Assembly: GCA_016188985.1 (NCBI GenBank)
Contig: JACPGM010000053.1
Location: 4,290 to 68,289, forward strand
Origin: Lentisphaerota bacterium
GTDB lineage: Bacteria; Verrucomicrobiota; Kiritimatiellia; JAAZAB01
DNA: 64,000 bases
Direction of reading: 5' to 3'
Shown here: piece by piece, positions 7,210 through 54,844 of the stretch
Position numbering within the stretch: position 1 is the stretch's first letter
How the letters are laid out: each line of letters opens with the position of its first letter
Translations under genes and position numbers: made by a program
The notes under the pieces: generated by a model
Seen by the model: the letters and a program-made list of their open reading frames with translations, nothing else
Databases searched by the model: none
What the model was told of the DNA's origin: nothing

Positions 7210-8895
7210 TTAGACCACCTCATAGTAATGATAGCGATCGCAGCGAAAGCCTTCCAGCGTCGTCAGTTTGACCCGCCGGCCACCAGGGGCCGGCGTGGGC
7301 GGTTTGATCTCCACCCGGTCTGCATACCCCACGTCAACCTTGGCAAAGTTGCTCCCATCGCCGTCTGGCGTGGAATCCCACGCGGCATACATGTCTGCTC
7401 CCCGGTCCAGGTAAGAATACACATAGTCCCGCCAGGCCTTGTAGTCGGAGGAAAACAGGTCCCACGGATACAGCAGCGGAATGAGCCGGATGTTTTTGCG
7501 GCCCTCCAGGCGATTGAAGTAATCGAAATCCAGGCTTTTGGGATCGTCCCGATGCACGTCGTTTTCACTGAAAACCTGGCCCGTCGGCAGGAGATCGTCA
7601 ATGATCCCCGCTTGCACCCACGTCGCAACGTCCAATCCCCACCGTCGGCAATCGAGTTCGTTGCCGGGAACGATGACCGATAGGCGCTGTCCCCGGTTCA
7701 AACAGGCCTTCGCTTTTTTGATGAACGGTGTCAGCACCGATGCCTGAAACGCCATCCAGCGCGCATCCGTTTCCGGCAGATCGCGCGGGTCAAGGCTGTA
7801 GCGCTTTTTGAATCCTGCCACCATGATCTTTTCATAGAGCACCAGCGGCACGCCGCGGATGAAACACAGACAGACGCCGTCCGGCTTGTAGCCGGCGATC
7901 TCCTTGATCAGCGCGAGCATATGCGCCTGGACTTCGGGGTAGGCGTAACTCAGACGCATCACCCGCTGGCCACGGCTGTCAAAACAATGAAATTCCGGAT
8001 GACGATGGAAGAAATTGGAATGCAGGCTTGTCTTGTCGAAGGGAAACGGCGCGTCAAAGGCCTCCATCCGCAGGTACGTCTGAAATTCCCACTTCCGCCG
8101 GCGCGTATAGTCCCGCATGAGTTTGAGGCTGTCCCACCCGTTCTTGCGCCAGAGCGCCATATTCCCATAAAGGGTCCGGTAGTTGGCCGCCAGGAACCGG
8201 CCCTGGGTCGGGTAGAAGTTTCCCACGCTGGTCGGATAGTTACACATGTCGCCGGTGCCGAGTCCCCAAAGCAACATGCGCATGCAGGTATGCTCGGGAA
8301 TCATTTCAAACGGCTCCAGCAAATCCTCCGGGCGGCAATGCGGACGTTCGCCGAAGATGCCGTGACCGTCGTTGGTCACCACCAGGGGGTGGCGGACTTT
8401 TCGCGGCTTGACCGGTTTGGGCGAACGAATCGGCTCCAACCGCAGAAACGCCAGCGCACACCCCCGCAGCGCACCAGCACTGAACGAGGGCTCCACAATC
8501 AGCGTTTGCCCCGTCAACTCCGCGTCGCGCCACCATGTTTCGTGGAGCGCCACGGATTCGGTGTACAGGTCCGATCGCGCGCCTGCGGGCGACGAGACGG
8601 GACGCGAACAGAGATCCCCGCTCAACCTTAAGCGCAGTGAATCCCCGTGACAGAAACTGAACAGCGCCACCCAGACCCGATACCAGCCCTTGACATTGAG
8701 CCTGACCGCGATGGGCGCCGGCTTGGGGCCTGTGCCGCAACCAAGCATGACGCCGGCGAAGCCCTCCGTCGTATAGGGAACCGCTCGCCAAAGATTCGGG
8801 TCATCCGGGTTGACCAAACGCTTGTTGGCCATTTTGGCGACATCGCTGATCAGGATGTTGCCACGACTGCGGCGCGGCCGTGAAATGGTTCTCAT
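7210..8895 (-). CDS. Hypothetical protein, possibly a TIM-barrel glycoside-hydrolase-like protein
   Basis: 561-aa ORF with non-random composition, tightly linked to the MBL gene. I recognise no firm motif. The start could instead be the internal Met at 8832. Confidence 0.6.
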   Translation of the reverse strand: MRTISRPRRSRGNILISDVAKMANKRLVNPDDPNLWRAVPYTTEGFAGVMLGCGTGPKPAPIAVRLNVKGWYRVWVALFSFCHGDSLRLRLSGDLCSRPVSSPAGARSDLYTESVALHETWWRDAELTGQTLIVEPSFSAGALRGCALAFLRLEPIRSPKPVKPRKVRHPLVVTNDGHGIFGERPHCRPEDLLEPFEMIPEHTCMRMLLWGLGTGDMCNYPTSVGNFYPTQGRFLAANYRTLYGNMALWRKNGWDSLKLMRDYTRRRKWEFQTYLRMEAFDAPFPFDKTSLHSNFFHRHPEFHCFDSRGQRVMRLSYAYPEVQAHMLALIKEIAGYKPDGVCLCFIRGVPLVLYEKIMVAGFKKRYSLDPRDLPETDARWMAFQASVLTPFIKKAKACLNRGQRLSVIVPGNELDCRRWGLDVATWVQAGIIDDLLPTGQVFSENDVHRDDPKSLDFDYFNRLEGRKNIRLIPLLYPWDLFSSDYKAWRDYVYSYLDRGADMYAAWDSTPDGDGSNFAKVDVGYADRVEIKPPTPAPGGRRVKLTTLEGFRCDRYHYYEVV

Positions 8896-18406: not shown

Positions 18407-18786
18407 TTGCGCTGATGTCCCCCAACCTGCGTTATTAGCTCTGGATCATTTGCGTCAGGCGCTGAGTAATGAAGCATGAAGCGCCGCCGGCTGCAAGTGG
18501 AAAAAACCGCTGCGGGGGGGTAATTGGCTACGGCTGTGTCGCTCTACCACATGAACGCCGCGTGGCCTGTCCGCAATGCTACGCATAGCGTTGCAGACGA
18601 GCTGCCCCGGCGAGCATGACGCAGCCTTGGACAATCCCGATCCCCGCCGGTCTCCCCCCTTGCCATTTAGCCGCCGACAATCTATATTAAGTTTGGGCCT
18701 AAACGCTTTTTGCCAGGCCCTCCTGAGGCCGGCGCTGAATAGGGCCTTTGTTATCCTCGGTCTGGCCGGTGGATTGAGTACCAAAT

Positions 18787-18802
18787 TGGCACGCAAACTG
18801 CT
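18787..18802 (+). promoter_or_regulatory. Candidate sigma54 (-24/-12) promoter upstream of the pseudopilin cluster
   Basis: TGGCACGcaaaCTGCT compared with consensus TGGCACG-N4-TTGCW. The GG and GC elements have correct spacing. It lies 55 nt upstream of the ATG at 18858. Confidence 0.4.
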
Positions 18803-18857
18803 TTATGTAATACAGGATAGCGATTTTGGCTTGCCTACGTAAGGGAGAGGAGCGATT

Positions 18858-19493
18858 ATGAGTCCGATGCAAAGCATAAAAACGGGAAAGTTGAGCGCGG
18901 CAGCGTTCTCCCTCGTGGAAGTGATGGTAGCCACGGCGATATTCGGCCTGGTGACGGCCGGCACCTTCGGCGTCTATATCATGTGCCAGAAGCTGTGGCG
19001 CGCCACGACGCTGAGCACGGATACGTCGCGGCTGGCCAACCTGGCAATCGAACGCATGATCTACGGACTGGGCACCAATAGCGGCCTGCGCTCCGCCGCC
19101 ACCATTTCAATTGACACCAATGTGCACACATATATGACTTATTCAAATTATTGGGATTCGCCGAATGGCTCACCGCCGCCGGCCAACCACTGGTCTCTTA
19201 ATTTATCTCCGACCTGGACTGAGCGCGATGGCAGTTGGCGGATAATTTGTTCTAATGCTTTCGATGGGGTGACCTGGATTGATTATGTAAAGAAACAACG
19301 AAGTATCGTAATGTGGCCAACTATCTGGCAGCCAGACAGCCGGCAGTATATCGCCAATTGGGTTTTGGACGCGGAGGTGTCCACCAACTGGCAAGGGAGC
19401 GACATTGCTGTGATGGTGGTAGTGTGGAAAAAGGATGGAAACTTTGTAGTCAGCAACGAGGCCAGCGCCTTAATCAAAATGCGGAACAAATGA
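18858..19493 (+). CDS. Pseudopilin / type IV pilin-like protein with a prepilin-type N-terminal domain
   Basis: 'AAAFSLVEVMVATAIFGLV' is a class-III signal-like segment with Glu at +5, followed by a hydrophobic helix. Confidence 0.7.
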   Translation: MSPMQSIKTGKLSAAAFSLVEVMVATAIFGLVTAGTFGVYIMCQKLWRATTLSTDTSRLANLAIERMIYGLGTNSGLRSAATISIDTNVHTYMTYSNYWDSPNGSPPPANHWSLNLSPTWTERDGSWRIICSNAFDGVTWIDYVKKQRSIVMWPTIWQPDSRQYIANWVLDAEVSTNWQGSDIAVMVVVWKKDGNFVVSNEASALIKMRNK

Positions 19494-19497
19494 AAGC

Positions 19498-19953
19498 ATG
19501 GTTAGCAGAGGGTGGTTTATGAAAGCAACTGATCCGGAGAAAAGAATTGGGCGGGTGACTTGCGGCCCGTCCGGGTTAACCCTGGTTGAGGTGGTGATCG
19601 CCATCGGGATCCTGTTGATCTCCACAGGGGCTCTTCTTTGGGCCTTTGTCAGCGCCAAGCACTCGAGCACCGTCGCGCAAAATCGAGTGTTGGCCATGGA
19701 AAATGCCCGTAACGAACTGGAACTGTTGCGGATTCAACCTTATTCGAGTGTTAGCAATTTCGGGCCCGTAGCTATAACCAATGCGATCTTCACGGGCATA
19801 AGCGGCAAGAGGCAATGGACTGTCACGGACTTTACCAATAGCAGCGGTGATAGCATCTATAAGGAAGTGATTGTGACCATCTCCTGGCTCAATCCAGGAA
19901 GCGCAGAGTCAAGTTCACTGAGTAACAGCACGGTCTTTTTTAACACGAATTGA
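19498..19953 (+). CDS. Pseudopilin / type IV pilin-like protein with a prepilin-type N-terminal domain
   Basis: 'GPSGLTLVEVVIAIGILLIS' has G|LTLVE with Glu+5. The start could instead be the Met at 19519. Confidence 0.7.
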   Translation: MVSRGWFMKATDPEKRIGRVTCGPSGLTLVEVVIAIGILLISTGALLWAFVSAKHSSTVAQNRVLAMENARNELELLRIQPYSSVSNFGPVAITNAIFTGISGKRQWTVTDFTNSSGDSIYKEVIVTISWLNPGSAESSSLSNSTVFFNTN

Positions 19954-19973
19954 CCGGGGTAGGGTGAAGCATC

Positions 19974-21110
19974 ATGAAAACCGGGGAATCAGGCGTTGTA
20001 TTGGAGGCCGTCGTCATTTTTGGCGGTTTGGCCTGTATTCTGGCCGCCGGCATCTACGTGGCCGGCAGTTCCACCGTGGTCAGCTCGGCCCGGACCATCC
20101 GATTTGAAAAAGCTTTTCTGATTGCCGAAGCTGGCGCTGAACGGGCCAAGGCCGATCTGAGCACTAACGCTGATAATATCAACACTATCTTAACCGGCGC
20201 CGATGGCCTTACCAACACGTCCGACGACGGCATTTTAAGTTTTGGCGCCGCAGTGCCCTTTGGCGGCGGAGCCTTTTCCACACGGGTCTGGGACAACAAC
20301 GACAGCGATCCCAGCCTGTTCGTGGATACGGATTGGACGGTTATTATTCGCTCCACCGGTGCCTGTGAAAACGTTCAGCGGGTTTTGGAACTGGCCGTCA
20401 CGGTGTCTAACCCCCCAGCGCCGCCGGCCGATAGTGACGGGGCTTTGGCTATTTATGGGAGTAATACTACCGTGGATGTCGGCGGGAATTCGTCCATTAA
20501 TGGCAATGATTGGGGTGTGCCGGATGATTTTGATTGCACGGGGGCTGCCTGTGACGGCACGCTGACGACCAATCCGGCCGGGCCGGGCGTGTTTTCATCC
20601 ACCAACACCACGCCGACCATCGGCGGCTCGGCCGTCGTGGTGGGTGATCCGCCCGTAACCAATAATGCGACGGGCGACTATGATGCGCAGTATTGGCAAG
20701 CCCAGGTTGACTACTGGACGCCCTTGGCCTCCCTTTCAATCAGCGGCAGCGTTCCCAATGATGCTTACCTCGGGACGCGCGATAACCCGCAAGTTACGCT
20801 GGCTACAGGCGATGTCAATATTGATGGTAATGTGTCCGGGGCTGGTGTTCTTATTGTCCAGCCCGGCGTTGATATCACCATTGCCGGCACGTTTCATTAC
20901 GAAGGGCTGGTGATTCTCCTGGGCAATGTAACTTGCACGGCCCTGGGCACGGCCGACATATTTGGCGCCGTGACCGTCGTGGGTGGAGACAACAGTGTTT
21001 CTCTGAATGGGTTTCCGTCAATCAAATATAGCACCGAGGCGCTGGCCAATCTGGTTAACCTGCCCTTACCCGGCCCGCTCGCGGTGCAATACTGGCGCGA
21101 AATCAAATAA
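19974..21110 (+). CDS. PilX-N-like pilus-associated protein, tandem paralog 1
   Basis: An N-terminal hydrophobic helix is followed by 'FEKAFLIAEAGAERAKA' (PilX_N-type motif). The C-terminus is Gly/Asn/Thr-rich and repeat-like: 'GAGVLIVQPGVDITIAGTFHYEGLVILLGN'. Confidence 0.65.
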   Translation: MKTGESGVVLEAVVIFGGLACILAAGIYVAGSSTVVSSARTIRFEKAFLIAEAGAERAKADLSTNADNINTILTGADGLTNTSDDGILSFGAAVPFGGGAFSTRVWDNNDSDPSLFVDTDWTVIIRSTGACENVQRVLELAVTVSNPPAPPADSDGALAIYGSNTTVDVGGNSSINGNDWGVPDDFDCTGAACDGTLTTNPAGPGVFSSTNTTPTIGGSAVVVGDPPVTNNATGDYDAQYWQAQVDYWTPLASLSISGSVPNDAYLGTRDNPQVTLATGDVNIDGNVSGAGVLIVQPGVDITIAGTFHYEGLVILLGNVTCTALGTADIFGAVTVVGGDNSVSLNGFPSIKYSTEALANLVNLPLPGPLAVQYWREIK

Positions 21111-21200
21111 ACGTTGCGGGCTTCTTCCTTCCTACCAATCCGTTCCCAGCGGGTGCGTAGCGCCTCAGTTATTTGGGGTCGGCGATCCAAATGTCCTCAG

Positions 21201-21293
21201 CAAGCTGAGGCCCTACGTAGGGCGCGACCACGCCTCTGGCGTGGTAAACCTCGTGCCAGCCACGCGAAACGCGTGGTCGCGCCATTTTACCCC
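21201..21293 (+). repeat. ~92-nt repeat, family E, copy 1 (internal hairpin ggcgcgaccacgc...gcgtggtcgcgcc)
   Basis: Near-identical to 24482-24573 in the same orientation, with one c/t difference seen. Confidence 0.8.
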
Positions 21294-21458
21294 TAGATAA
21301 CTGAGACACGGGTCCCAACGGGTGCCAAAAACGGGCTTGACAGCAGCTTCCAATTAGATTAGTCTATTTTTGGTTAATGATTGAATTGGGTCTATTTACA
21401 TGGTTCCAAACCATATAAGTAGGGCCACAATAAGCGTTTCACGCGGGAAATGGGCCTC

Positions 21459-22595
21459 ATGAAAACCGAGCAATCCGGCTTTGCTTTAGTGATTGTCGTT
21501 ATCCAGGCCAGCCTGGCTTCAATCATGGCCGCCGGCCTGTACATGGCCAGCGGTTCTACGGTTGCCCGCGCCAACCGGACGCTTCATTTTGAAAAATCAT
21601 TTCTAATTGCCGAAGCGGGCGCTGAACGGGCCAAGGCCGTCCTGTCCACTAATGCTGATAATATCAACACTATCTTAACCGGCGCCGATGGCCTTACCAA
21701 CACCTGCGACGATGGCATTTTGAGTTTCGGCAACTCGGTGTCCTTTGCTGGCGGAGACTTTTCCGTGCTGGTCTCCGACAACGCTGACAGTAATCCCAGC
21801 CTATTCGTAGATACGGATAATACGGTCATTATCCGCACTACCGGCACCTATGAAAATGCCCGGCATGTGCTGGAATTGTCGGTCACGGTTACCAACCCGT
21901 CCGCCCCGCCGGCCGATACCGATGGCGCTCTGGCTATTTATGGAAGCAATGCTACGGTGAATGTTGGCGGCAGTGCGTCCATTGATGGCCGAGACTGGGC
22001 GGTCCCCGCTGATTTTGACTGCACGGGGGCCGGCTGCGACGGCGCGTTGACGACCAATGCGGCCGGGCCGGGCGTGTTTTCAGCTACCAACACGACAACC
22101 ATTAACGGCTCGAACAACATTGTGGGCAATCCGCCCGTGACCAATAATGCCGTCGGAGAGTATGACGAGCAATATTGGCAGGACCAGGTTGACTACTGGA
22201 CGCCCCTGGCTTCCCTTTCGATCAGCGGGAATGTGGCCAATGGCTCTTCCTTCGGGACGCGGACCAGTCCCCAGATTACCATTGTTACGGCCGACGCCAG
22301 TATTGCTGGCAATGTGGCTGGCGCTGGCGTGCTCATTGTCATGCCCGACGTTGATATCAGCATTTCGGGCACGTTCCATTATGAAGGGCTGGTGATTCTC
22401 CTGGGCGACGTGGTGTGTACGGCCCTCGGCACGGCCGACATATTTGGCGCTTTGGTGGCGCTTGGTGGGGAAAATAGTGTCACGCTGAATGGGCATCCGA
22501 ACGTCAAATACAGCACCCAGGCTCTGGCCAACCTGGCCAACATGGACGATTTACCTCCTCCGCTCTCGGTTCAATACTGGCGAGAAATTAAATAA
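21459..22595 (+). CDS. PilX-N-like pilus-associated protein, tandem paralog 2
   Basis: Collinear with 19974-21110 along its whole length, with the same N-terminus 'MKT..SG' and C-terminus 'VQYWREIK'. ATG 21459 was chosen by alignment to paralog 1. Confidence 0.65.
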   Translation: MKTEQSGFALVIVVIQASLASIMAAGLYMASGSTVARANRTLHFEKSFLIAEAGAERAKAVLSTNADNINTILTGADGLTNTCDDGILSFGNSVSFAGGDFSVLVSDNADSNPSLFVDTDNTVIIRTTGTYENARHVLELSVTVTNPSAPPADTDGALAIYGSNATVNVGGSASIDGRDWAVPADFDCTGAGCDGALTTNAAGPGVFSATNTTTINGSNNIVGNPPVTNNAVGEYDEQYWQDQVDYWTPLASLSISGNVANGSSFGTRTSPQITIVTADASIAGNVAGAGVLIVMPDVDISISGTFHYEGLVILLGDVVCTALGTADIFGALVALGGENSVTLNGHPNVKYSTQALANLANMDDLPPPLSVQYWREIK

Positions 22596-24376: not shown

Positions 24377-24481
24377 GGAGCAAGCACAAAAGAAAACGTC
24401 CAGTAATGGGTCGGTTACGCGGGGAATCGATCCCAATGGCCTCAGCCCGCCTGCAACGCTATGCGTAGCATTGCGGGCAGG

Positions 24482-24573
24482 CAAGCTGAGGCCCTACGTA
24501 GGGCGCGACCACGCCTCTGGCGTGGTAAACCTCGTGTCAGCCACGCGAAACGCGTGGTCGCGCCATTTTACCC
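24482..24573 (+). repeat. ~92-nt repeat, family E, copy 2
   Basis: See 21201-21293. It is immediately preceded by the 31-nt imperfect palindrome at 24450-24481. Confidence 0.8.
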
Positions 24574-31008: not shown

Positions 31009-32304
31009 GTGAAAGAATGTGAAACCATAGAATTCAAGAAGAGTCTGTCAGAACTCAAGGAGGGCTTGGTCTCCATTGTGGCCATCCTGAACAAGCATGG
31101 CTCCGGTGAACTGTGGTTTGGCGTCCGCAACGACGGTGTCAGCGTTGGCCTGGATGCCACAACAAAGACCCTTCGTGATGTTTCGCAAGCGATTAGTGCG
31201 CACATTGAACCGAGGATTTTCCCGCACGTCACACTGGAATCCTGCGCCAGGGAGCTGGAGAATCTTATCCTTTCCAGGAATAGCGAGCGACTTCGCTGGG
31301 ACAACAAAGTGTGTGCTGTTTCTATCGGTGACCTGGATAAAGCCGGAATCAGGCGGTTTATCGCGCGTGCCGGACTCGTATGGGATACCCCGACAAATGC
31401 GCTGGAGAAACTCGGACTTCTTCATGCCGGAAAGCTGGTGAATGCGGCCCCGCTGTTCTTTGCGCGAAAGGCTCCGCTGCAACTGCGTTGCGCCGTTTTT
31501 CTGACGACCGAGAGTTCAACAATTATTGACCGGCATGATTTTGACGGCAACATCCTCGAACTGATAGAAGAGGCTCAACGCTACATTCTCAAAAACATCC
31601 ATATCGGCATGCGTGTCAAGGGGCTTTACCGCGAAGACGTGCCGGAAATCTCGGTTGATGCCCTGCGTGAGGCCATTATCAACGCCTTCTGCCATCGTGA
31701 TTACCGCGATCCGGATTATGTGCACGTTGCGATTTTCAAAGACCGCGTCGAAATCCGAAATCCTGGCAGGTTGTTCGGATCACTGACCTTGGACGATTTG
31801 CGCAAAGGATATGTGTCGCAACGGCGCAATCCATTGATCGCCGATCTGTTCCGCCGCATCGAGATGGTGGAAGCCTGGGGTCGCGGCATGCCGTTGATCA
31901 TCAAGAATGCTCCCGACGTCGTGTTTCGCGAAATCGGCAATCTTTTCATCGTTTCCTTCAACCGGCCATCTTATGCGGATGAATCTGGCAGGGGTGATGC
32001 GTCAAGTTCGGGAAAGGAAGTTCCGGTAAGAGGGTTCCTGAAAGAAAGTTCCGGCAAGAAGGTATCTGAAGAAGGTTCGGGAAAGAAGGTTCGGGAAAGA
32101 AGGTTCGGGAAAGATTCTGGAAAAACCGGACATCAAATACTCGATTTCCTTTCACAGCAACCCGAGATGACGGTTCCTGAACTTGCCGGGCGGCTGGGAC
32201 TAACGACTCGCGCGATTGAGAAGCAAATCGCCAAATTGCGGGATGCGAAATTACTGCTTCGCACAGGCGGACGTAAAATAGGGCGTTGGGAGGTGCAGAA
32301 ATGA
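31009..32304 (+). CDS. AlbA_2 (Schlafen-core-like) + HATPase_c_4-like + C-terminal wHTH protein
   Basis: N-terminus 'ECETIEFKKSLSELKEG...GELWFGVRNDG', centre 'EAIINAFCHRDYRDPDYVHVAIFKDRVEIRNPG', C-terminus 'MTVPELAGRLGLTTRAIEKQIAKLRDAKLL'. GTG start. Confidence 0.8.
   Translation: MKECETIEFKKSLSELKEGLVSIVAILNKHGSGELWFGVRNDGVSVGLDATTKTLRDVSQAISAHIEPRIFPHVTLESCARELENLILSRNSERLRWDNKVCAVSIGDLDKAGIRRFIARAGLVWDTPTNALEKLGLLHAGKLVNAAPLFFARKAPLQLRCAVFLTTESSTIIDRHDFDGNILELIEEAQRYILKNIHIGMRVKGLYREDVPEISVDALREAIINAFCHRDYRDPDYVHVAIFKDRVEIRNPGRLFGSLTLDDLRKGYVSQRRNPLIADLFRRIEMVEAWGRGMPLIIKNAPDVVFREIGNLFIVSFNRPSYADESGRGDASSSGKEVPVRGFLKESSGKKVSEEGSGKKVRERRFGKDSGKTGHQILDFLSQQPEMTVPELAGRLGLTTRAIEKQIAKLRDAKLLLRTGGRKIGRWEVQK
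32071..32112 (+). repeat. Perfect 14-nt tandem repeat (GAAGGTTCGGGAAA)x3 inside the AlbA_2-family CDS
   Basis: Three exact head-to-tail units sit inside a longer tract of degenerate 13-14-nt units (about 32003-32125). Confidence 0.9.
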
Positions 32305-32702
32305 CTTCCGCCGTGAAATGTGGGACAACGCGACGACGGACGGCCCGGGGGTGTCAGTTCCACGCGCTTGCGGACATCGAAAAATAAGCAGGAAACCGCT
32401 CCTGGCATTTTGACGGAGTGGATGTTCTGCCGGTGAGCGAGTTTCTGCGCCAGTTGCATCAGGGAAAGGTTTTTTGAAAAACACTAACCGAATATGTTTT
32501 GCCGCCGGAAATAAATATCCCCTTATTAAGGGCCACTGGGACAACAAAAAGCTAACTTCGCGTGAATGCACCCGGCTCCAGAGATACGAAGATTATTGGT
32601 CCAGATTCCGGCTGCGCTATATGTAAAAGTACCACAATCGCAATTCGCACTGGCAGACAGCCAGCCGTCAGAAAAACCAGTTAAAAATATGATATACATG
32701 TG

Positions 32703-34703
32703 ATGAAAACGACTTCAACCCCTCGTCTGACGCGCTCTTGGTTCGTCCGAACCATAGCTGAATTTGAGAGTGCATCTGACGATCAAGTACTTGCCGAACT
32801 GGTCAGGGGCAGTTTGTTTCCCATTCTGCAATCTCAGAGGGATGCTTGGCTCGCAGAACTGCCATTTTTGCGGAGGGCCCTGACCGGCCATACGGGAATG
32901 GTGTACCTTGAGTTCGCAATCCCGAGGATGGGGCATCGCGTTGATGCGGTCGTGTTGATAAACGGGATTGTTTTGGCAATAGAATTCAAGATCGATGCGA
33001 GGGAATACTTTCTGAGCGATGTTGACCAGGTATACGACTACGCGATCGATCTCAAATACTTCCACGAGGCCAGCCATAACCTATCGGTAGTGCCAATTCT
33101 CGTGGCATCACGGGCAAAGACCAGGTTCTTCCTGCTTGCACCACACGCGAGAGTATCTGGACTTTGTCAACCAATCTGCACGAATGCTGAGGATTTGGCA
33201 GCGACCATCAACTGTGTGATAAGCAAGTTGCCTGCGGAATGCGTTGACCCGGCCACATGGGAGGCTTCTCGTTATTGCCCAACCCCCACAATCGTTGAGG
33301 CCGCCCGCGCTCTCTACGCCGGTCATGGCGTCGCCGACATCTCGCGCAACGATGCAGGAGCCATCAATCTGAGCGAGACATCAGAACAGTTAGTGCGAAT
33401 CATTGAAACCTCGAAGTCCTTGGGCCAAAAGGCCATTTGTTTCGTCACCGGAGTGCCGGGTGCCGGGAAGACACTTGTGGGGCTTAACATTGCGACGAAG
33501 TATAACGACCCCAAGAGTGAACTTCATAGTGTGTTTCTTTCGGGGAACGGCCCTCTTGTAGCAATTCTCCGCGAAGCTCTGGCGCGAGACACCATTCAAC
33601 GCGAACGTGTTAAAGGAAACCGACTCAGGAAAGGCGACGCCATGGCACGGGTGAAGGCGTTTATCCAAAACGTACACCATTTTCGGGATGAATGTCTCCT
33701 TGATCAGTCTCGTCCGCCTGTCGATCATGTCGCGTTGTTTGATGAGGCGCAACGCGCCTGGGATCAGGAGCAGACGGCCTTGTTTATGCGCCGCAAGAAG
33801 GGGGTCACAGGCTTCAACGTATCGGAGCCAGAGTTCCTGATTTCGTGCATGGATCGGCGCAACGATTGGGCGGTGATTGTTTGCCTTGTCGGCGGAGGGC
33901 AAGAGATCAACACTGGGGAGGCCGGCATTGGGGAATGGATTGAGGCCGTGCAACGCGCATTTGGCGAGTGGCACCTGTACATCTCTCCTGCGTTAACGGA
34001 TAGCGAATATGGCGCGGGAAAACTTCTCGAAGCAATCAGGAACCGCGCTAATGTGCACTACCTGCAGGAACTTCATCTTGGCGTCTCAATGCGCTCATTT
34101 CGAGCCGAAAAGGTTTCGGCCTTCGTCAAGATGGTTTTGGATTTCGAAATTACCCGAGCGCGGGATCTATTGCAGGAGTTTGAGGGTCGCTATCCCATCG
34201 TGTTGACCCGCAATTTGGACCTCGCAAGACAATGGTTGCGCGATCAAGCCAGTGGAAACGAGCGGTTTGGGATTGTTGTATCATCGCAGGCAGAGCGATT
34301 GAAACCATATGCCATTGATGTTCGAACGCCTGTGAATCCTGTGAAGTGGTTTCTCGATGGAAAAGACGATGTGCGGTCATCGTACTACCTTGAAGATGTT
34401 GCGACCGAATTTCATGTACAAGGGCTTGAGCTCGACTGGGTGTGCGTATCGTGGGACGGCGATTTTCGCTACAACGAACACGGCTGGCAGCACCTCTCAT
34501 TTCGCGGCACCAAGTGGCAGCGCATCAACAAGGCTTCCAGAAAAAACTACCTCAAGAATGCCTATCGTGTCCTACTCACACGGGCGCGTCAGGGAATGGT
34601 GATATTCATTCCTGAAGGAAGTTCAACTGATCCAACAAGGCATCCGAGTTACTATGACTCGACTTTTGCCTACTTGCGGTCAATTGGGCTGCGCGAGTTG
34701 TAG
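32703..34703 (+). CDS. DUF2075-type P-loop NTPase/helicase-like protein with an N-terminal PD-(D/E)XK-like nuclease core
   Basis: 'RVDAVVLINGIVLAIEFK' (D...ExK), Walker A 'GVPGAGKT', Walker B 'ALFDEAQRAW' and C-terminus 'YRVLLTRARQGMVIF'. Length 666 aa. Confidence 0.85.
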   Translation: MKTTSTPRLTRSWFVRTIAEFESASDDQVLAELVRGSLFPILQSQRDAWLAELPFLRRALTGHTGMVYLEFAIPRMGHRVDAVVLINGIVLAIEFKIDAREYFLSDVDQVYDYAIDLKYFHEASHNLSVVPILVASRAKTRFFLLAPHARVSGLCQPICTNAEDLAATINCVISKLPAECVDPATWEASRYCPTPTIVEAARALYAGHGVADISRNDAGAINLSETSEQLVRIIETSKSLGQKAICFVTGVPGAGKTLVGLNIATKYNDPKSELHSVFLSGNGPLVAILREALARDTIQRERVKGNRLRKGDAMARVKAFIQNVHHFRDECLLDQSRPPVDHVALFDEAQRAWDQEQTALFMRRKKGVTGFNVSEPEFLISCMDRRNDWAVIVCLVGGGQEINTGEAGIGEWIEAVQRAFGEWHLYISPALTDSEYGAGKLLEAIRNRANVHYLQELHLGVSMRSFRAEKVSAFVKMVLDFEITRARDLLQEFEGRYPIVLTRNLDLARQWLRDQASGNERFGIVVSSQAERLKPYAIDVRTPVNPVKWFLDGKDDVRSSYYLEDVATEFHVQGLELDWVCVSWDGDFRYNEHGWQHLSFRGTKWQRINKASRKNYLKNAYRVLLTRARQGMVIFIPEGSSTDPTRHPSYYDSTFAYLRSIGLREL

Positions 34704-41924: not shown

Positions 41925-43529
41925 TCACCCCGCAAACGCAAAGGTGAACAGCCGGGCCGAGCGCATAAAGAACTCCAAACGGACAGGCGTTCCGGCCAGG
42001 AAGCTCAAATCGCTTCTTCCCTTCCATGTGACGGTATGCCGCAGGTGATTCAGATCCACCGGATCGCAATCCTCCCGCGTAAAACCGCCGACCGGGCGGC
42101 CCTCGGCGTCCCTGATTTGCACGAAAGCCTCGCCCAACCCCTGGCAGTCAATGTTCAGTTCAAGCTGCTTGCCATCGTGCCACAAAAGAGGCGTCAGAAA
42201 CCGTCCGCCGCGCGGACCGGCGGTTGCGGCGATGAAACGATCTTTTTGTTGCACAAGCCGGAAGACCGTTCCGCCCTCTTGAACGCCGTCCGGATCGAAT
42301 ACGCCGTGCGTTGTGCGACACCCCAGGTAATATTGAAAAACCTCGTCTCCGCGCCGGATCATGCCGGGCACGACCATGATCAAGCCGCCGTCGGGTTCCC
42401 CATACAGACCGTTCCCGACGTAGGGCCGCCGATCGGGCCGGCTCCACGTGCGCCCGTCGCGGCTCACCGCGAGCTGCGTTTCGAAGACTCCGTCATTGCC
42501 GCGCGCAAAATACCGGTGGGTCTCGCGCCCGCGGCGGTCAACAGAACCGGGATACTTGCGGAAAAGACCGGGAAAACCCAGCCATACCCCGTCGGCATAG
42601 CGGGTGGCGCTGAGATGGTTGATGTCAAGACTGGGCAGCGGCATATCTCCGGCGTCAATGTCCAGTGCGGTCTCCAGTTCGTCCGTGACATAGATGCAGC
42701 CCGTATGATCCAGCTTCCGTTCGCGAGCCGCGAAAGGCCAGGGCGTCTGATCCAGACTCTCCACTTCGCACCGCACAATGGTGCGGCGATTTGGAAATCC
42801 GCGCAGCAGCGCCACATACCGGCGCGTGGCGGGGTCGTAGAGGATCTGGTTGTTGGTGTCGGCGGTGAACGGCAACACCGGCTGGGGTTTCATCGTCCAC
42901 CGTATGCCGTCGGGCGATACGCTTAGGTAGAGCTTGCCTCCCTTCGAAGAGATCGCCATGAAGCGTTCCGCTGGGGAGCCCGCGGGATTGATCGCCGCCA
43001 CGCAATTCGCGCCGGTGAAAGGGAAAAAATTGTTCGCGCGGCTGCCGTGATAGTCCATGAGACCGAGTTCAGGACGCTCCCAACGAATGCCGTCCGCGCT
43101 CGTGAAAAAACCTTTGTGATAGAGTTCGCGACAGACCCATTCGATTCCCGGAAGGGGCCAGCCGCAGGAGCGGCAAAGAAGCTGCCGGCCTTCGTTTCCC
43201 TTGTTGCAGCAGGGACAGGCAACCTTTCCCGGCACGCCCTCGTAGCGCGCGATGCCGAGTGTCCACATTTTGTATATCCCATCGTCCTCGAGCACGGCCG
43301 ATGGCTCGATCCGGTAAGCCTCCCACGCATGCTCTGGTTTGAGAACCGGCCCCGCCTTTAGGGCCGGGTTCATTTCAAGCGTCATGCCGTCGCATTCCAG
43401 GAAGAACAAGTCATCCAGAAAGAATTGCGTTGTCGTGCCGATAGTCATGGGCTTCATGCGCAGATTCGGCGGATTCAAGGGACCGTAATTAGCAACTGGA
43501 TCGGAATTTCCCATACCTATGGATTTCAT
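41925..43529 (-). CDS. Hypothetical protein, beta-propeller-like (possible glycoside hydrolase) with an inserted zinc ribbon
   Basis: Long ORF next to the GH39-like gene. 'CPCCNKGNEGRQLLCRSCGWPL' is CxxC...CxxC. Start 43529 has a GAGGAA RBS. Confidence 0.6.
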   Translation of the reverse strand: MKSIGMGNSDPVANYGPLNPPNLRMKPMTIGTTTQFFLDDLFFLECDGMTLEMNPALKAGPVLKPEHAWEAYRIEPSAVLEDDGIYKMWTLGIARYEGVPGKVACPCCNKGNEGRQLLCRSCGWPLPGIEWVCRELYHKGFFTSADGIRWERPELGLMDYHGSRANNFFPFTGANCVAAINPAGSPAERFMAISSKGGKLYLSVSPDGIRWTMKPQPVLPFTADTNNQILYDPATRRYVALLRGFPNRRTIVRCEVESLDQTPWPFAARERKLDHTGCIYVTDELETALDIDAGDMPLPSLDINHLSATRYADGVWLGFPGLFRKYPGSVDRRGRETHRYFARGNDGVFETQLAVSRDGRTWSRPDRRPYVGNGLYGEPDGGLIMVVPGMIRRGDEVFQYYLGCRTTHGVFDPDGVQEGGTVFRLVQQKDRFIAATAGPRGGRFLTPLLWHDGKQLELNIDCQGLGEAFVQIRDAEGRPVGGFTREDCDPVDLNHLRHTVTWKGRSDLSFLAGTPVRLEFFMRSARLFTFAFAG

Positions 43530-43675
43530 TGCCGTTTCCTCTTGGTCAGGTCCGGGCGATGCGCGCGGCGGCTCAAACACTTAATGGATAGCGAATTCCC
43601 GGCGCAGAAGCAAAGAGAATTGCCGCGTTTCTATCATTGACAGGCGGGCATAAACGGGCATGGTTAATGCTGCTC

Positions 43676-47055: not shown

Positions 47056-47772
47056 ATGAAACCCATGCTGCATGCCTTGATGGATATTGTCTTTCCGCGC
47101 TTCTGCGCCGGCTGCGGCCATGAAATCGGCGGGGTCTCCGGATATTTGTGCTGGGATTGCCAAACGCGCTTCGAGTGGATTCATCCGCCCTTTTGCGAGA
47201 TTTGCGGCGATCCGCTGGAAGGCGACGTGCCAATGCCGGTGGTTTGCGCGGGGTGCCGGCAAGGGCTTCCCGCCTTTGAGCGGGCCCGCTCGGTAGCGCG
47301 GTTCCGCGGCGTCTTGCGCGAGCTCTTGCATGATTTCAAGTATCGGGGGGCTACCTGGCTCAGCGGCGACCTGGTGGGACTGCTGCGGACTTGCTACGAA
47401 ATCTACTTTGCCCGGGCCGGTTTTGACACCGTGACCTACGTACCCTTGTATCCCGCGCGCGAGCGGGAACGCTCCTATAACCAGGCGCTGCTGCTGGCCC
47501 AGGGCCTGGCCGGCACCTGCCCGGGCCTGGCGCTGCGCGCGTGTTTACGGCGCATTCGGCCAACCCGCTCGCAAACCAATTTGACAGCCGCAGAGCGACT
47601 TGCTAACGTTAAAGACATGTTCGCGATCCGTTCGTCCCGGGACACGCAGGGCAAACGTATCCTGTTGATTGATGATGTCATGACCACCGGCGCGACGGTC
47701 AATGAATGCGCGCTCACCCTCAAAGAGGCCGGGGCCTCTCTGATCGGCGTGCTGACCGTAGGGCGCGGGTAG
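47056..47772 (+). CDS. ComF family protein (phosphoribosyltransferase-domain)
   Basis: N-terminal double CxxC zinc finger 'CAGCGHE...CWDC...CEICG...CAGC'. PRT motif 'ILLIDDVMTTGATV'. Confidence 0.85.
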   Translation: MKPMLHALMDIVFPRFCAGCGHEIGGVSGYLCWDCQTRFEWIHPPFCEICGDPLEGDVPMPVVCAGCRQGLPAFERARSVARFRGVLRELLHDFKYRGATWLSGDLVGLLRTCYEIYFARAGFDTVTYVPLYPARERERSYNQALLLAQGLAGTCPGLALRACLRRIRPTRSQTNLTAAERLANVKDMFAIRSSRDTQGKRILLIDDVMTTGATVNECALTLKEAGASLIGVLTVGRG

Positions 47773-49630: not shown

Positions 49631-50527
49631 TCAATATGTGAGGAGGAGGCGATCATGGACGACCTCATCCTCAAGCGATTCGCCCTCTCTCTGAAAACGC
49701 CGCAGCATGCTTCTGCCGCAATCCAAGAACACTTCTCGCTCAAATAGACCGTCCGGGATTCCCAGTTTACAGTCCACGCGACCGGATTTCTTTTTGCCGT
49801 CAATACTTAGGGCAACCCGAACACCGCGTGTCTTGCAGTAGGCAATGGCGCGCATCAACCGCTGCAAAGAGAAGTCTTGCCCCCGGTACAAGATTGCCTG
49901 ACTACAGACATAGGGCGGGTCGCAGTACACAAGATCTCTCTCCTTGGCCAGAGACATAGCCTCTTCAAAGTCCATCTGCCGGAAGTCCGCCCCTGCCGTC
50001 CGCCGCAGCCATATGTCAACACGCTGCGCGAATGATCCCGGCGCGATAGGGTCGTGAATGCCGCATGGCGTCGAAATGTACCCATCGCTCTTGCGAAACC
50101 GGACAACCCCTCCGTAGCAACTCCGGCAAATGAACAAGAGATCAGGGCCATTCGGCTTGGCGTTGTAGTTTGCCTTTATCTGCTCGTATCCAGCCGGTTT
50201 GCCTAATTCTCGGAATTCGGTGTACCGACTTCTGTACCACTCCGCGAGTTGGTTGGGGGAATCGTGAAGACACCGCCAAATCTCCATGAGCGGGCCGCAG
50301 ATATCGGAACCCACGGCAGCCGGAGGCTGAAGTGCTGCAAGAACGGCCCCACTTCCCAGGAACGGCTCCCGATATGTGTGAATGTCTGTCGGGAAAAACG
50401 ACGCTATCTTGTGAGCAAACCGTTGCTTGTTCCCTATCCACTTTAGAAGCTGGGTCTTGAACGGAGCCACGTGCTGGAACTCAGTTCCGTAGAACAGATC
50501 GAGAGTATCTTCTTCTTTGACTTTCAT
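49631..50527 (-). CDS. N6-adenine DNA methyltransferase, Dam/D12 class (RM-associated)
   Basis: 'LKWIGNKQR', motif I 'EPFLGSGAV' and motif IV 'YCDPPYV'. The start at 50527 leaves a 59-nt divergent control region. The longer ORF to 50569 is possible. Confidence 0.85.
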   Translation of the reverse strand: MKVKEEDTLDLFYGTEFQHVAPFKTQLLKWIGNKQRFAHKIASFFPTDIHTYREPFLGSGAVLAALQPPAAVGSDICGPLMEIWRCLHDSPNQLAEWYRSRYTEFRELGKPAGYEQIKANYNAKPNGPDLLFICRSCYGGVVRFRKSDGYISTPCGIHDPIAPGSFAQRVDIWLRRTAGADFRQMDFEEAMSLAKERDLVYCDPPYVCSQAILYRGQDFSLQRLMRAIAYCKTRGVRVALSIDGKKKSGRVDCKLGIPDGLFEREVFLDCGRSMLRRFQREGESLEDEVVHDRLLLTY

Positions 50528-50537
50528 GACGTGCCTA

Positions 50538-50561
50538 CAATATCCCGATTTGGGATTATTG
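50538..50561. promoter_or_regulatory. Candidate C-box/operator palindrome between the divergent methylase and controller genes
   Basis: caatatccc-gattt-gggattattg has imperfect 9-10-nt arms. A TATACT -10-like box (50574-50579) lies 7 nt before the GTG at 50587. Confidence 0.3.
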
Positions 50562-50586
50562 TCAACCATATTATATACTCCCTCAC

Positions 50587-50832
50587 GTGAAACACAACAG
50601 GTATGCGGCTAACGAGGAACATCTGCGGAGCTTGCTCCGGCAGAAACGAATACAGTGTGGCTTGACACAGGCCGCACTGGCGATTGTTCTTCGGAAACCC
50701 CAGTCCTTCGTAAGCAAGTACGAATCAGGGGAACGGCTTCTGTCGTTTGTCGAAACCATCGACGTCTGCCGAGCGCTGAACATCGACCCACGAACACTTC
50801 TCAAGGAGTATCTGCCACATCATGATGCCTGA
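50587..50832 (+). CDS. XRE-family HTH controller (C) protein of the RM system
   Basis: 'LRQKRIQCGLTQAALAIVLRKPQSFVSKYESGERLLSFVE' is a Cro/C1-type HTH. Length 81 aa. It overlaps the downstream endonuclease candidate by 11 nt. Confidence 0.75.
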   Translation: MKHNRYAANEEHLRSLLRQKRIQCGLTQAALAIVLRKPQSFVSKYESGERLLSFVETIDVCRALNIDPRTLLKEYLPHHDA

Positions 50833-51655: not shown

Positions 51656-51746
51656 CCAGCGCCTCAACCTTACGTTTTTACCTGGGCGGCAAAAACGACA
51701 GTGAGGCGTAACGATTAGCTGTTTACTTCTCCCCGTCTTTAAGAGC

Positions 51747-53293: not shown

Positions 53294-53376
53294 GCCGGGG
53301 TGGCGAAATGGCAGACGCGCCGGACTCAAAATCCGGTGGTGGCAACACCATGAGGGTTCAAGTCCCTCCTCCGGCA
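53294..53376 (+). tRNA. tRNA-Leu (anticodon CAA)
   Basis: Hand-folded. Acceptor GCCGGGG/CTCCGGC (one G-U pair), D-arm GTGGCGAAATGGCAGACGC, anticodon stem ccgga/tccgg with loop cuCAAaa, long variable arm tggtggcaacaccat, and T-arm gaggg-ttcaagt-ccctc. CCA is not encoded. Confidence 0.9.
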
Positions 53377-53643: not shown

Positions 53644-53680
53644 ATTTTCTTGTTTTTTGTGACGGTTTTGCGTGTATCAG

Positions 53681-54766: not shown

Positions 54767-54844
54767 TTGTGTTGCCTTGCTGTTTCGTCGCGAGTGTGCC
54801 GCACCCGGTTGTCTGGACACTGGTTTGCATTATGCCGCTACGGG

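What the first reader, a model, noticed from the sequence alone, without database searches (positions are those of the whole stretch)
19974..22595. Tandem PilX-like paralogs with long perfectly identical DNA tracts, suggesting gene conversion or variation at a surface-filament locus
Seen: two ~378-aa genes are collinear end to end. By eye they are roughly two-thirds to three-quarters identical at the protein level (not computed). Despite many scattered substitutions they share a 50-nt perfectly identical run, 20169-20218 = 21654-21703 (gctgataatatcaacactatcttaaccggcgccgatggccttaccaacac). A further 24-nt identical run, gaagggctggtgattctcctgggc, lies near the 3' ends. They follow two pseudopilin genes. 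No ATPase, secretin, platform or prepilin-peptidase gene is in the window. Inference: this is a duplicated tip/minor-pilin-like adhesin pair. The mosaic identity is compatible with ongoing gene conversion (antigenic or receptor-specificity variation).
Basis: partly seen in the sequence, partly recalled or inferred. Interest (0 to 1): 0.5.

Follow-up and report, generated by a model that had tools for sequence, protein, structure and literature searches.

The report
Duplicated pilus-tip pilin genes, one conversion patch
Two neighbouring genes in an uncultured Lentisphaerae bacterium encode sister versions of a known kind of pilus-tip protein (a pilin stalk carrying a beta-solenoid head), and one short stretch has been copied from one gene into the other; this is a clean but ordinary case of gene duplication with occasional gene conversion, not a variation machine.

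Summary
Genes 19974-21110 (A) and 21450/21459-22595 (B) are collinear paralogs, 72.7% identical in protein and 77.1% in DNA. They share an exact 50-nt run at 20169-20218 = 21654-21703.

A sister genome carries the same A/B pair, and a more distant relative has a single copy in the same neighbourhood. The duplication is therefore older than the split of the two genomes.

Inside the 50-nt run the orthologs differ at 10-11 sites, and one has a 6-nt indel. Constraint therefore cannot explain the identity. Permutation tests support a short ectopic gene conversion in this lineage (P<2e-4). The 24-nt run is only a conserved motif.

The proteins are PilX/GspK/ComZ-class capping minor pilins:
- a long N-terminal helix without Glu5;
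- a GspK-like pilin sheet;
- an ice-binding-protein-like beta-solenoid.

They follow one PilW/GspJ-like and one PilV/GspI-like gene. No pilus machinery is in the window.

Orthology signal dominates (87 sites against 18) and dN/dS is 0.14-0.28. Conversion is therefore sporadic and confined to the 5' part, and nothing indicates programmed antigenic variation.

Verdict: a new member of a known kind, of modest interest.

The parts
18858..19493 (+). PilW/GspJ-like minor (pseudo)pilin, 211 aa, with prepilin motif AAFSLVEVMVA
   Evidence: Pfam N_methyl 22.7 bits, above its cutoff. Weak NCBIfam gspJ hit. Motif scan. Orthologs precede the family gene in L001, L002 and L003.
19498..19953 (+). PilV/GspI-like minor (pseudo)pilin, 151 aa, with motif GLTLVEVVIA
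   Evidence: NCBIfam gspI E 1.3e-4 and PilV E 9e-4, both below their cutoffs. Motif scan. Conserved position in related loci.
19974..21110 (+). Paralog A (HYV35_04500, 378 aa): PilX/GspK/ComZ-class capping minor pilin. Alpha1 helix is residues 6-64, pilin sheet 94-144, beta-solenoid 158-352 and last strand 369-377.
20169..20218 (+). Gene-conversion tract, copy in A (codons 66-82, ADNINTILTGADGLTNT). It lies just after the long alpha1 helix. The statistical footprint may extend back to about 20123.
   Evidence: 0/50 differences to B35. There are 11/44 differences plus a 6-nt indel to A36. Sawyer-type P<2e-4. Max-chi-square segment 20123-20216: 16 of 17 informative sites match B35, P<2e-4.
20901..20924 (+). 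24-nt identical run (copy in A) encoding the conserved EGLVILLG motif. This is conservation, not conversion.
   Evidence: Identical in B36, and A36 differs at 2 positions. E310 and G311 are invariant in 36 family members. The run is shorter than the mean longest run in shuffles.
21200..21292 (+). 93-nt hairpin-forming repeat element in the A-B spacer. A second copy lies at 24481-24573.
   Evidence: 99% identical copy found by blastn; fold energy -44 kcal/mol. Absent from the A36-B36 spacer.
21337..21365 (+). Promoter-like block upstream of B (TTGACA, 17 nt, TAGTCT). It sits in the only spacer segment that aligns clearly with the sister genome, where the block reads TTGACA-17-TATAAA.
   Evidence: Alignment. 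The consensus scanner did not call it. Function is inferred.
21450..22595 (+). Paralog B (HYV35_04505; 381 aa from 21450, or 378 aa from the ATG at 21459 as in the NCBI record)
   Evidence: Weak NCBIfam T2SS_GspK N-terminal hit, E 0.002.
21654..21703 (+). Gene-conversion tract, copy in B
   Evidence: 10/50 differences to the ortholog B36.
22386..22409 (+). 24-nt identical run, copy in B (conserved EGLVILLG motif)

Best explanation
Positions 18858-22595 are a four-gene minor-pilin operon of an uncultured Lentisphaerae/Kiritimatiellia-type bacterium. It encodes one PilW/GspJ-like protein, one PilV/GspI-like protein and two paralogous PilX/GspK/ComZ-class capping pilins, A and B.

Each capping pilin has:
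- a class-III-type N-terminus (SG followed by a hydrophobic helix) without the Glu5 needed to add a further subunit;
- a GspK-like pilin sheet;
- a triangular, ice-binding-protein-like beta-solenoid that, by order of secondary-structure elements, sits before the last strand, as in ComZ.

By analogy with GspI-J-K, PilV-W-X and ComZ-PilA2, the small pilins and one large pilin form the priming complex. That complex starts filament assembly and ends up at the tip, with the solenoid pointing outward as plug or ligand-binding head (inferred). Two cap genes beside a single I/J pair would give two alternative tips on the same base. B probably has its own promoter (inferred).

History (shown): the cap gene was duplicated before the split of the two sampled genomes. 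The copies then diverged under purifying selection. Fixed A/B differences lie in the extreme N-terminal helix and in the solenoid, and none lies in residues 31-93. In this genome's lineage a short RecA-type ectopic gene conversion overwrote 50 nt or more (perhaps about 95 nt) of one copy with the other. The tract covers the segment just after alpha1. Weaker traces of older exchange lie in the 5' half. Conversion is sporadic, not a programmed variation mechanism.
For: Identity of the genes:
- Exact matches to NCBI MAG proteins HYV35_04500 and HYV35_04505.

Fold:
- AF2 mean pLDDT 87, with helix 6-64, four strands at 94-144, solenoid 158-352 and a final strand 369-377.
- Foldseek top hit is ComZ 6qvi, E 8e-7.
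- The ComZ and cyanobacterial PilX architecture is described in PMC6561018 and bioRxiv 10.64898/2026.02.12.705559.

Family:
- 8 of 36 aligned homologs hit Pfam PilX_N, best E 6e-13.
- A 37%-identical full-length homolog passes the PilX_N cutoff next to a GspH/PilV/PilW/PilX set.
- An Ectothiorhodospira homolog sits in a pilV-pilW-pilX position.
- No member has Glu at +5.

Context:
- J-I-K cassettes recur in related loci.

Duplication age:
- The A/B pair is in the sister MAG, and a single copy is in the syntenic outgroup.
- 87 orthology-type sites against 18 concerted and 10 of the third type.

Conversion:
- In the tract there are 0/50 differences A35-B35, against 11/44 plus an indel (A35-A36) and 10/50 (B35-B36). 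Outside it A35-B35 differ at 23.9%.
- Sawyer-type run of 15 polymorphic sites, P<2e-4.
- Max-chi-square P<2e-4 and P=6e-4.
- Synonymous-shuffle P=0.005.

Selection:
- dN/dS 0.14-0.28.
- No fixed A/B residues in 31-93, against 36 elsewhere.
Against: - A and B themselves do not reach any Pfam threshold. The NCBIfam GspK hit is far below its cutoff. Family assignment therefore rests on structure prediction and on homologs.
- TM-scores to ComZ are low (0.24), because the long helix and the domain orientation differ.
- No assembly ATPase, platform, secretin or peptidase is in the window. The filament type (T4P or T2SS-like) and even expression are unknown.
- The idea of alternative tips and the promoter of B are inferences. 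The promoter scanner did not call the site.
- Donor and recipient of the conversion cannot be resolved.
- Evidence for older exchanges is only borderline: scan P 0.02-0.15, and P 0.05-0.21 for the HYV36 pair.
- The sequence is a metagenome-assembled consensus, and I could not inspect reads.
Confidence: 0.7

Rival explanations
1. There was no recombination. The 50-nt identity would reflect strong constraint on this segment (amino-acid plus codon or RNA-level), acting on two old paralogs.
For: The tract lies in the most similar part of the genes: 88-95% identity in 60-nt windows around 20120-20240. Part of the encoded motif (TGADG.TNT.DDG) is conserved family-wide. With only the two paralogs, the synonymous-shuffle P is a modest 0.005.
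Against: The same 50 nt are not conserved between orthologs. A36 differs at 11 of 44 sites plus a 6-nt deletion, and B36 differs at 10 of 50. Both figures exceed the gene-wide ortholog divergence of 14-16.5%. The encoded peptide also differs (LVTNS--INTVLTGADGATNT and LSTNANNMNTILTGADNTTNT).
Confidence: 0.04
2. This is a programmed or high-frequency variation system. Frequent conversion between the two copies would shuffle the surface-exposed head, to vary antigenicity or receptor specificity as in Neisseria pilE/pilS.
For: One clear conversion tract. Concerted-type sites are enriched in the 5' half. The pilin genes evolve faster than the neighbouring rnc: dN 0.085-0.21 against 0.059. An independent tandem pair in a Planctomycetota MAG also has a 50-nt identical run.
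Against: Both copies are complete genes, and there are no promoterless cassettes. A/B identity is preserved across two genomes that differ by dS of about 0.5. The converted segment is in the stalk-proximal part, not in the solenoid head. The head holds 24 of the 36 fixed A/B differences. dN/dS is well below 1. No variant alleles were found in public data.
Confidence: 0.06
3. The tract is an artefact of metagenome assembly or consensus polishing, for example reads of one paralog recruited to the other.
For: The window is a MAG contig. Paralogs at 77% identity with 20-25-nt shared words could attract mis-mapped reads during polishing.
Against: The tract is a clean 50-nt block bounded by normal divergence on both sides. 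It differs from both orthologs, and it keeps the reading frame and the motif. Fifty nt is shorter than typical final assembly k-mers, so no graph collapse is expected (this last point is inference). The reads were not available.
Confidence: 0.05
4. The proteins have the same fold but belong to a different machine. They would be GspK-type tips of a short periplasmic type II secretion pseudopilus, where the solenoid contacts cargo or the secretin. They would not be tips of an extended surface pilus or adhesin. The gene-conversion history is unchanged under this reading.
Against: Homologs carry Pfam PilX_N and sit in pilV-pilW-pilX or GspH-PilV-PilW-PilX type IV pilus minor-pilin sets. The closest solved full-length match is the competence-pilus tip pilin ComZ. 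Solenoid-bearing PilX proteins are reported to prime surface pili in cyanobacteria. No T2SS genes are nearby.
Confidence: 0.2

Closest known systems
ComZ, competence-pilus tip pilin of Thermus thermophilus (PDB 6QVI; PMC6561018)
   Same: It is the best solved-structure match (Foldseek E 8e-7). Both have a GspK-like pilin domain with a triangular, IBP-like beta-solenoid placed before the last beta-strand. Both are encoded next to small minor pilins and are proposed to cap the filament.
   Different: Sequence identity is only 10-12% and TM-score is low. The ComZ solenoid is about 380 residues and irregular. Here it is about 195 residues with an IBP-style flanking helix at 238-251. DNA binding was not tested. 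Here the gene is duplicated.
Cyanobacterial PilX homologs with beta-solenoid (PilX-Com and PilX-EPS; bioRxiv 10.64898/2026.02.12.705559)
   Same: [quoted passage not shown] There are several PilX paralogs per genome. They are proposed to form distinct priming complexes and to replace the PilY1 plug.
   Different: The phylum is different. In cyanobacteria each PilX subfamily pairs with its own PilV subfamily. Here two PilX-like genes share a single PilV-like and a single PilW-like gene in one operon. No direct sequence comparison was made.
GspK/XcpX, tip pseudopilin of the type II secretion system (PDB 3CI0, 5VTM)
   Different: GspK carries an alpha-helical insertion between strands 3 and 4, not a solenoid before the last strand. 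The NCBIfam GspK model is matched only at the N-terminus, at 17.6 bits against a cutoff of 130.
Ectopic gene conversion between tandem bacterial paralogs (for example the duplicated tuf genes of enterobacteria, from my own knowledge)
   Same: A short identical patch lies within otherwise diverged tandem paralogs, and phylogenetic incongruence is limited to that patch.
   Different: Here conversion has not homogenised the genes. Orthology signal dominates at 87 to 18 sites. Only one clear tract exists.
Neisseria pilE/pilS antigenic variation (from my own knowledge)
   Same: Pilin genes and non-reciprocal transfer of short tracts.
   Different: That system uses promoterless silent cassettes and acts on the major pilin's exposed region at high frequency. 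None of these features is seen here.

Membership tests
Type IV pilin-like (class III signal peptide) proteins | Short leader ending in Gly, followed by a roughly 20-residue hydrophobic segment that begins a long N-terminal alpha-helix | tested here: met
   The motif SG followed by VVLEAVVIF or FALVIVVIQ is conserved as SG|MVLVxVV in the family. The AF2 model has a helix at 6-64. Cleavage by a prepilin peptidase was not tested.
PilX/GspK-type capping minor pilin | Absence of the conserved Glu at position +5 of the mature protein | tested here: met
   Position +5 is hydrophobic in all 36 aligned members where the motif could be placed. The A-type copies have Glu at +4 instead.
PilX/GspK-type capping minor pilin | Match to the Pfam PilX_N (PF14341) or NCBIfam T2SS_GspK models above their cutoffs | tested here: not met
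   A and B have no Pfam hit at E<=1. GspK scores 17.6 bits against a cutoff of 130. Eight of 36 aligned homologs do hit PilX_N, and a 37%-identical homolog passes its cutoff. Membership is therefore by homology chain and by fold, not by direct model match.
PilX/GspK-type capping minor pilin | Pilin-domain fold similar to GspK | tested here: met
PilX/GspK-type capping minor pilin | Encoded with PilV/GspI-like and PilW/GspJ-like partners | tested here: met
   Genes 18858-19493 and 19498-19953. The same arrangement is in L001, L002, L003, L008 and L022.
PilX/GspK-type capping minor pilin | Forms a ternary tip complex and primes filament assembly | not testable with these tools
   This needs multimer modelling or biochemistry. 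No machinery genes are in the window.
ComZ-like solenoid pilins | IBP-like triangular beta-solenoid inserted between the penultimate and last strands of the pilin sheet | tested here: met
ComZ-like solenoid pilins | DNA binding or a role in competence | not testable with these tools
   The only hint is a ComF-like gene about 25 kb away, at 47056-47772. That is not evidence of linkage.
Ice-binding proteins (DUF3494) | Sequence match to the DUF3494 family and an ice-binding face | tested here: not met
   No Pfam hit. The similarity is of fold only, at 10-18% identity.
Gene-conversion tract between paralogs | Paralogs are identical where orthologs have diverged, with a fragment longer than permutation expectation | tested here: met
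Programmed pilin antigenic variation (pilE/pilS type) | Silent partial cassettes serve as donors, and variation targets exposed regions at high frequency | tested here: not met
   Both copies are complete ORFs. There is a single tract, in the stalk-proximal segment. A/B identity is stable across two genomes. Frequency could not be measured because no population data were found.

The most novel reading that the evidence does not exclude
Two alternative tip pilins must dock onto the same PilV-like/PilW-like base. Localized gene conversion may keep their docking segment interchangeable. That segment is residues about 31-93, the C-terminal half of alpha1 plus the following loop. It has no fixed A/B difference, although a third of its sites vary, and it contains the conversion tract. 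Meanwhile the membrane-proximal N-terminus and the solenoid head are free to specialise. This would be a 'homogenise the interface, diversify the head' mode of paralog evolution in type IV filament priming complexes. The independent tandem pairs in this protein family (Planctomycetota L021, Verrucomicrobiota L006) would allow it to be tested.
Probability: 0.2. Interest if true: 0.5.

Novelty: new member of a known kind. Interest (0 to 1): 0.3.

Why it matters
The finding gives a structural and functional label to two 'hypothetical proteins' of an uncultured PVC-group bacterium: a solenoid-bearing PilX/ComZ-type cap pilin. The family behind them is large, with about 10,000 clusters at 50% identity at E<=1e-3. 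Its solenoid part has no Pfam model.

It is also a tidy natural example, with a four-gene comparison and a single-copy outgroup, of a short gene-conversion patch between tandem paralogs. If the interface-homogenisation idea held, it would say something general about how bacteria diversify filament tips while reusing one priming base. As it stands, neither the fold nor the evolutionary process is new.

Tried and rejected
- **Sequence search of solved structures.** A profile of the 36-member alignment against all PDB sequences gave no hit at E<=10. Only fold comparison worked.
- **AFDB50 fold search.** The library was not available.
- **Exact-protein look-up of gene A.** It was not on record, so I could not get precomputed neighbour annotation.
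- **Population data.**
  - An exact search for the 50-mer in JGI metagenome contigs gave 0 hits.
  - A protein-guided scan of the same collection gave no relatives.
  - The 5.8-billion-protein search found nothing closer than the sister MAG at 86%, followed by 54%.
  - Allelic mosaicism therefore could not be tested.
- **My 'global P'.** It compared raw run lengths across pairs with different identity, which is not a fair correction. I rely instead on the pairwise P with a Bonferroni factor of 6, and on the triplet test.
- **A second conversion tract around 20500-20610 in the sister genome.** It is only borderline, P 0.05-0.21, and I do not claim it.
- **Clustering of concerted-type sites around 20100-20218.** It depends on window size, scan P 0.02-0.15, so it is suggestive only.
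- **Promoter and terminator scan.** Counts were no higher than in shuffles, and the scan did not call the conserved TTGACA block upstream of B.
- **Rfam.** Nothing lies in or near the locus.
- **Donor and recipient of the conversion.** The outgroup is too diverged in the tract to polarise it.
- **Literature.** A search for Kiritimatiellae together with pseudopilin found no paper.
Full report
**1. What is at the coordinates**

ORF listing shows four co-oriented genes:
- 18858-19493 (211 aa);
- 19498-19953 (151 aa);
- 19974-21110 (378 aa, 'A35');
- 21450-22595 (381 aa, 'B35'; 378 aa if started at the ATG at 21459).

A35 and B35 align end to end with three small indels. They are 72.7% identical in protein and 77.1% in DNA. 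The longest exact run is 50 nt, at 20169-20218 = 21654-21703. The factual part of the finding is therefore correct.

**2. Is the 50-nt run more than chance?**

I first used only the two paralogs. Keeping the protein alignment and permuting, within each amino-acid class, which identical residues carry synonymous differences, the longest run has mean 27.7 nt and 95th percentile 39. A run of 50 nt or more occurs in 0.5% of permutations. That is suggestive, but the run was picked post hoc. The 24-nt run is unremarkable on this scale.

**3. The decisive comparison**

The protein search identified the window as a Lentisphaerae MAG (locus tags HYV35_04500 and HYV35_04505). It also found the same tandem pair in a sister MAG, HYV36.
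- The HYV36 contig (L001) has A36 and B36 in the same place, between a GFO/IDH/MocA oxidoreductase gene and rnc-xerD.
- A more distant relative (L002, 54% identity) has the same neighbourhood but a single copy.
- A35/A36 are 86% identical in protein and B35/B36 are 84%. All A-B comparisons are 72-75%.

The duplication therefore predates the split of the two genomes. Among four-taxon informative sites, 87 support orthology, 18 group by genome ('concerted') and 10 support the third topology.

Inside the 50-nt tract:
- A35 and B35 have 0 differences;
- A36 differs from A35 at 11 of 44 sites and lacks 6 nt;
- B36 differs from B35 at 10 of 50 sites.

Both values are above the gene-wide ortholog divergence of 16.5% and 14.0%. 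The encoded peptides differ too.

The formal tests agree:
- A Sawyer-type test finds 15 consecutive polymorphic sites agreeing between A35 and B35, where the per-site agreement is 0.33. None of 5000 permutations reached this.
- A max-chi-square triplet test places a segment at 20123-20216 in which 16 of 17 informative sites of A35 match B35 rather than A36 (P<2e-4).
- The reciprocal triplet test for B35 gives P=6e-4.

I conclude that a short ectopic gene conversion occurred in the HYV35 lineage. The outgroup is too diverged to say which copy was the donor.

**4. How much conversion?**

Not much.
- The 24-nt run encodes the family-invariant EGLVILLG motif. It is identical in B36, and A36 differs at only 2 positions. 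This is conservation.
- Concerted-type sites are enriched around 20100-20218 (5 of 7 informative sites, against 13 of 108 elsewhere; Fisher P about 0.001). Window-corrected scan P is only 0.02-0.15.
- Sixteen of the 18 concerted sites lie before 20600.
- The HYV36 pair shows only a borderline segment near 20510-20609.

Synonymous divergence also bears on timing. dS is 0.57-0.81 between paralogs, 0.62 (A) and 0.40 (B) between orthologs, and 0.51 for the neighbouring rnc gene. The duplication is thus only moderately older than the genome split, or it has been partly eroded by old exchanges. dN/dS is 0.14-0.28 throughout. From those distances I estimate about 0.5 on the post-duplication branch; this is my own rough arithmetic.

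Fixed A/B amino-acid differences number 36, distributed as follows:

| Region (residues) | Fixed A/B differences |
|---|---|
| 1-30 | 6 |
| 31-93 | 0 |
| 94-150 | 4 |
| 151-352 (solenoid) | 24 |
| 353-378 | 2 |

**5. What the proteins are**

Pfam gives nothing for A or B. NCBIfam gives only a sub-threshold N-terminal match of B to T2SS_GspK.

A 36-sequence family alignment gave an AlphaFold2 model with mean pLDDT 87. Its elements are:
- a long helix at 6-64, then a short helix at 66-74;
- four strands at 94-144;
- a beta-solenoid at 158-352, with a flanking helix at 238-251;
- a helix at 354-362 and a final strand at 369-377.

Structure comparisons gave:
- Foldseek against the PDB: top hit ComZ of Thermus thermophilus (6qvi, E 8e-7), followed by ice-binding proteins.

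This is the architecture described for ComZ: a GspK-like pilin domain with an IBP-like solenoid inserted before the last strand, argued to sit at the pilus tip (PMC6561018). It is also described for cyanobacterial PilX homologs, which are proposed to prime distinct pili and to replace the PilY1 plug (bioRxiv 10.64898/2026.02.12.705559).

At family level:
- 8 of 36 aligned homologs hit Pfam PilX_N.
- A 37%-identical homolog in a deltaproteobacterial MAG passes the PilX_N cutoff beside a GspH/PilV/PilW/PilX set.
- A homolog in Ectothiorhodospira magna occupies the pilX position after pilV and pilW.
- All members have the SG|hydrophobic N-terminus and none has Glu at +5, the hallmark of the capping subunit.

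The two upstream genes carry prepilin motifs and weakly resemble GspJ/PilW and GspI/PilV. The family is large, with 10,141 representatives of 50%-identity clusters at E<=1e-3 and 195 at E<=1e-30. It occurs in Verrucomicrobiota/Kiritimatiellia, Planctomycetota, Desulfobacterota-type MAGs, Gammaproteobacteria and Gemmatimonadota.

**6. Context**

The J-I-K cassette is modular and is often repeated:
- The sister MAG and several relatives have a second, DUF4900-type cassette upstream. The window has lost it; about 3.6 kb is missing relative to L001.
- L003 has two cassettes.
- Independent tandem K-K pairs exist in L006 (35% identity) and in a Planctomycetota MAG, L021 (81%).

In the window, only these two prepilin motifs are found. 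None of the 30 window ORFs of 235 aa or more that I scanned against Pfam (not every ORF in that size range) is a T4P/T2SS ATPase, platform, secretin or peptidase.

The A-B spacer is 339 nt. It contains a 93-nt hairpin repeat that recurs at 24481-24573. Near its 3' end is the only block that aligns clearly with the sister genome's spacer, TTGACA-17-TAGTCT against TTGACA-17-TATAAA. I read this as a likely promoter for B, although the consensus scanner did not call it.

**7. Mechanism proposed**

*Shown:*
- the fold class;
- the gene neighbourhood;
- the duplication history;
- purifying selection;
- one conversion tract.

*Inferred from established knowledge of GspI-J-K, PilV-W-X and ComZ-PilA2:*
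- The J-like and I-like pilins and one of the two large pilins assemble into the priming complex of a type IV filament.
- The large pilin, which lacks Glu5, caps the filament.
- Its solenoid points outward as plug or ligand-binding head.

With two cap genes and one I/J pair, the cell could make two kinds of tip on the same base. The conversion tract and the absence of fixed differences in residues 31-93 are compatible with both caps needing the same docking surface. That is a hypothesis (probability about 0.2), not a result.

**8. Rivals**

- *Constraint without recombination.* Contradicted by the ortholog comparison.
- *Assembly artefact.* It cannot be formally excluded without reads, but it fits poorly with a clean, in-frame 50-nt block that differs from both orthologs.
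- *pilE/pilS-like programmed variation.* It lacks every defining feature that could be tested.
- *T2SS-like pseudopilus rather than surface pilus.* This remains open at about 0.2.

**9. Verdict**

This is a new member of a known kind, with interest about 0.3.

Noticed in passing
window 21200-21292 and 24481-24573; partial copy at L001 687-723: A 93-nt intergenic repeat, 99% identical between its two copies, folds into a long hairpin (-44 kcal/mol). One copy lies between the two pilin paralogs and the other between xerD and the HMA-domain gene. It looks like a REP- or MITE-like element. It is absent from the sister genome's A-B spacer.
   Followed up: partly
window 18407-18857, against L001 866-4451: The window lacks a cassette of about 3.6 kb and four genes. 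The cassette encodes a PilV-like protein, a PilW-like protein, a 418-aa DUF4900-type PilX-like protein and a 138-aa protein. The sister MAG has it upstream of the same operon. Upstream hits limited to the N-terminal part of the query in L007, L009, L010 and L013, and a DUF4900 gene in L008, suggest that relatives have it too. This genome probably deleted it.
   Followed up: partly
window 19992-20015 (A35 residues 7-14); same in A36: The A-type paralogs have a Glu at +4 after the SG motif (G|VVLEAVV). All other family members examined, including B and the single-copy outgroups, are hydrophobic there. If cleavage were one residue earlier this Glu would be at +5. That would change the 'cap' logic for copy A.
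   Followed up: no
A35 residues 31-93 (window 20064-20252): There are no fixed A-versus-B amino-acid differences in this 61-residue stretch, although about a third of its sites vary. The rest of the protein has 36 fixed differences. The stretch contains the conversion tract.
   Followed up: partly
L021 1049-2197 and 2377-3516 (Planctomycetota MAG OFTM94): This is an independent tandem duplication of the same protein family (81% aa and nt identity). It has its own exact 50-nt identical run near the 3' end. No sister genome was available to test for conversion.
   Followed up: partly
window 47056-47772 (+): A ComF-like gene (double zinc ribbon plus phosphoribosyltransferase domains). This family is associated with DNA uptake. 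It is of passing interest because the closest solved structure, ComZ, is a competence pilin. There is no linkage evidence.
   Followed up: no
window 31009-34703 (+) and 49631-50569 (-): Adjacent Schlafen/AlbA_2 + HATPase_c_4 + HTH gene and Schlafen group-3 helicase gene, which may form a defence-type pair. A D12-class adenine methyltransferase gene lies further on.
   Followed up: no
window 7210-8895 (-), 41925-43580 (-), 53672-54853 (+), 50801-51916 (-): Large ORFs (371-561 aa) with no Pfam match at the E-value limits used (1e-5, or 1e-4 for 50801-51916). I did not check whether they are real genes.
   Followed up: no
window 53294-53376 (+): A single tRNA gene, the only Rfam match in the window.
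   Followed up: no
A35 residues about 75-92 (window about 20196-20249): A conserved acidic loop follows alpha1 (family consensus LxGxDxxxxTxDDGxLxFG). It is reminiscent of Ca-binding DxDxDG-type loops of other pilins. This is unverified and rests on my own recollection.
   Followed up: no
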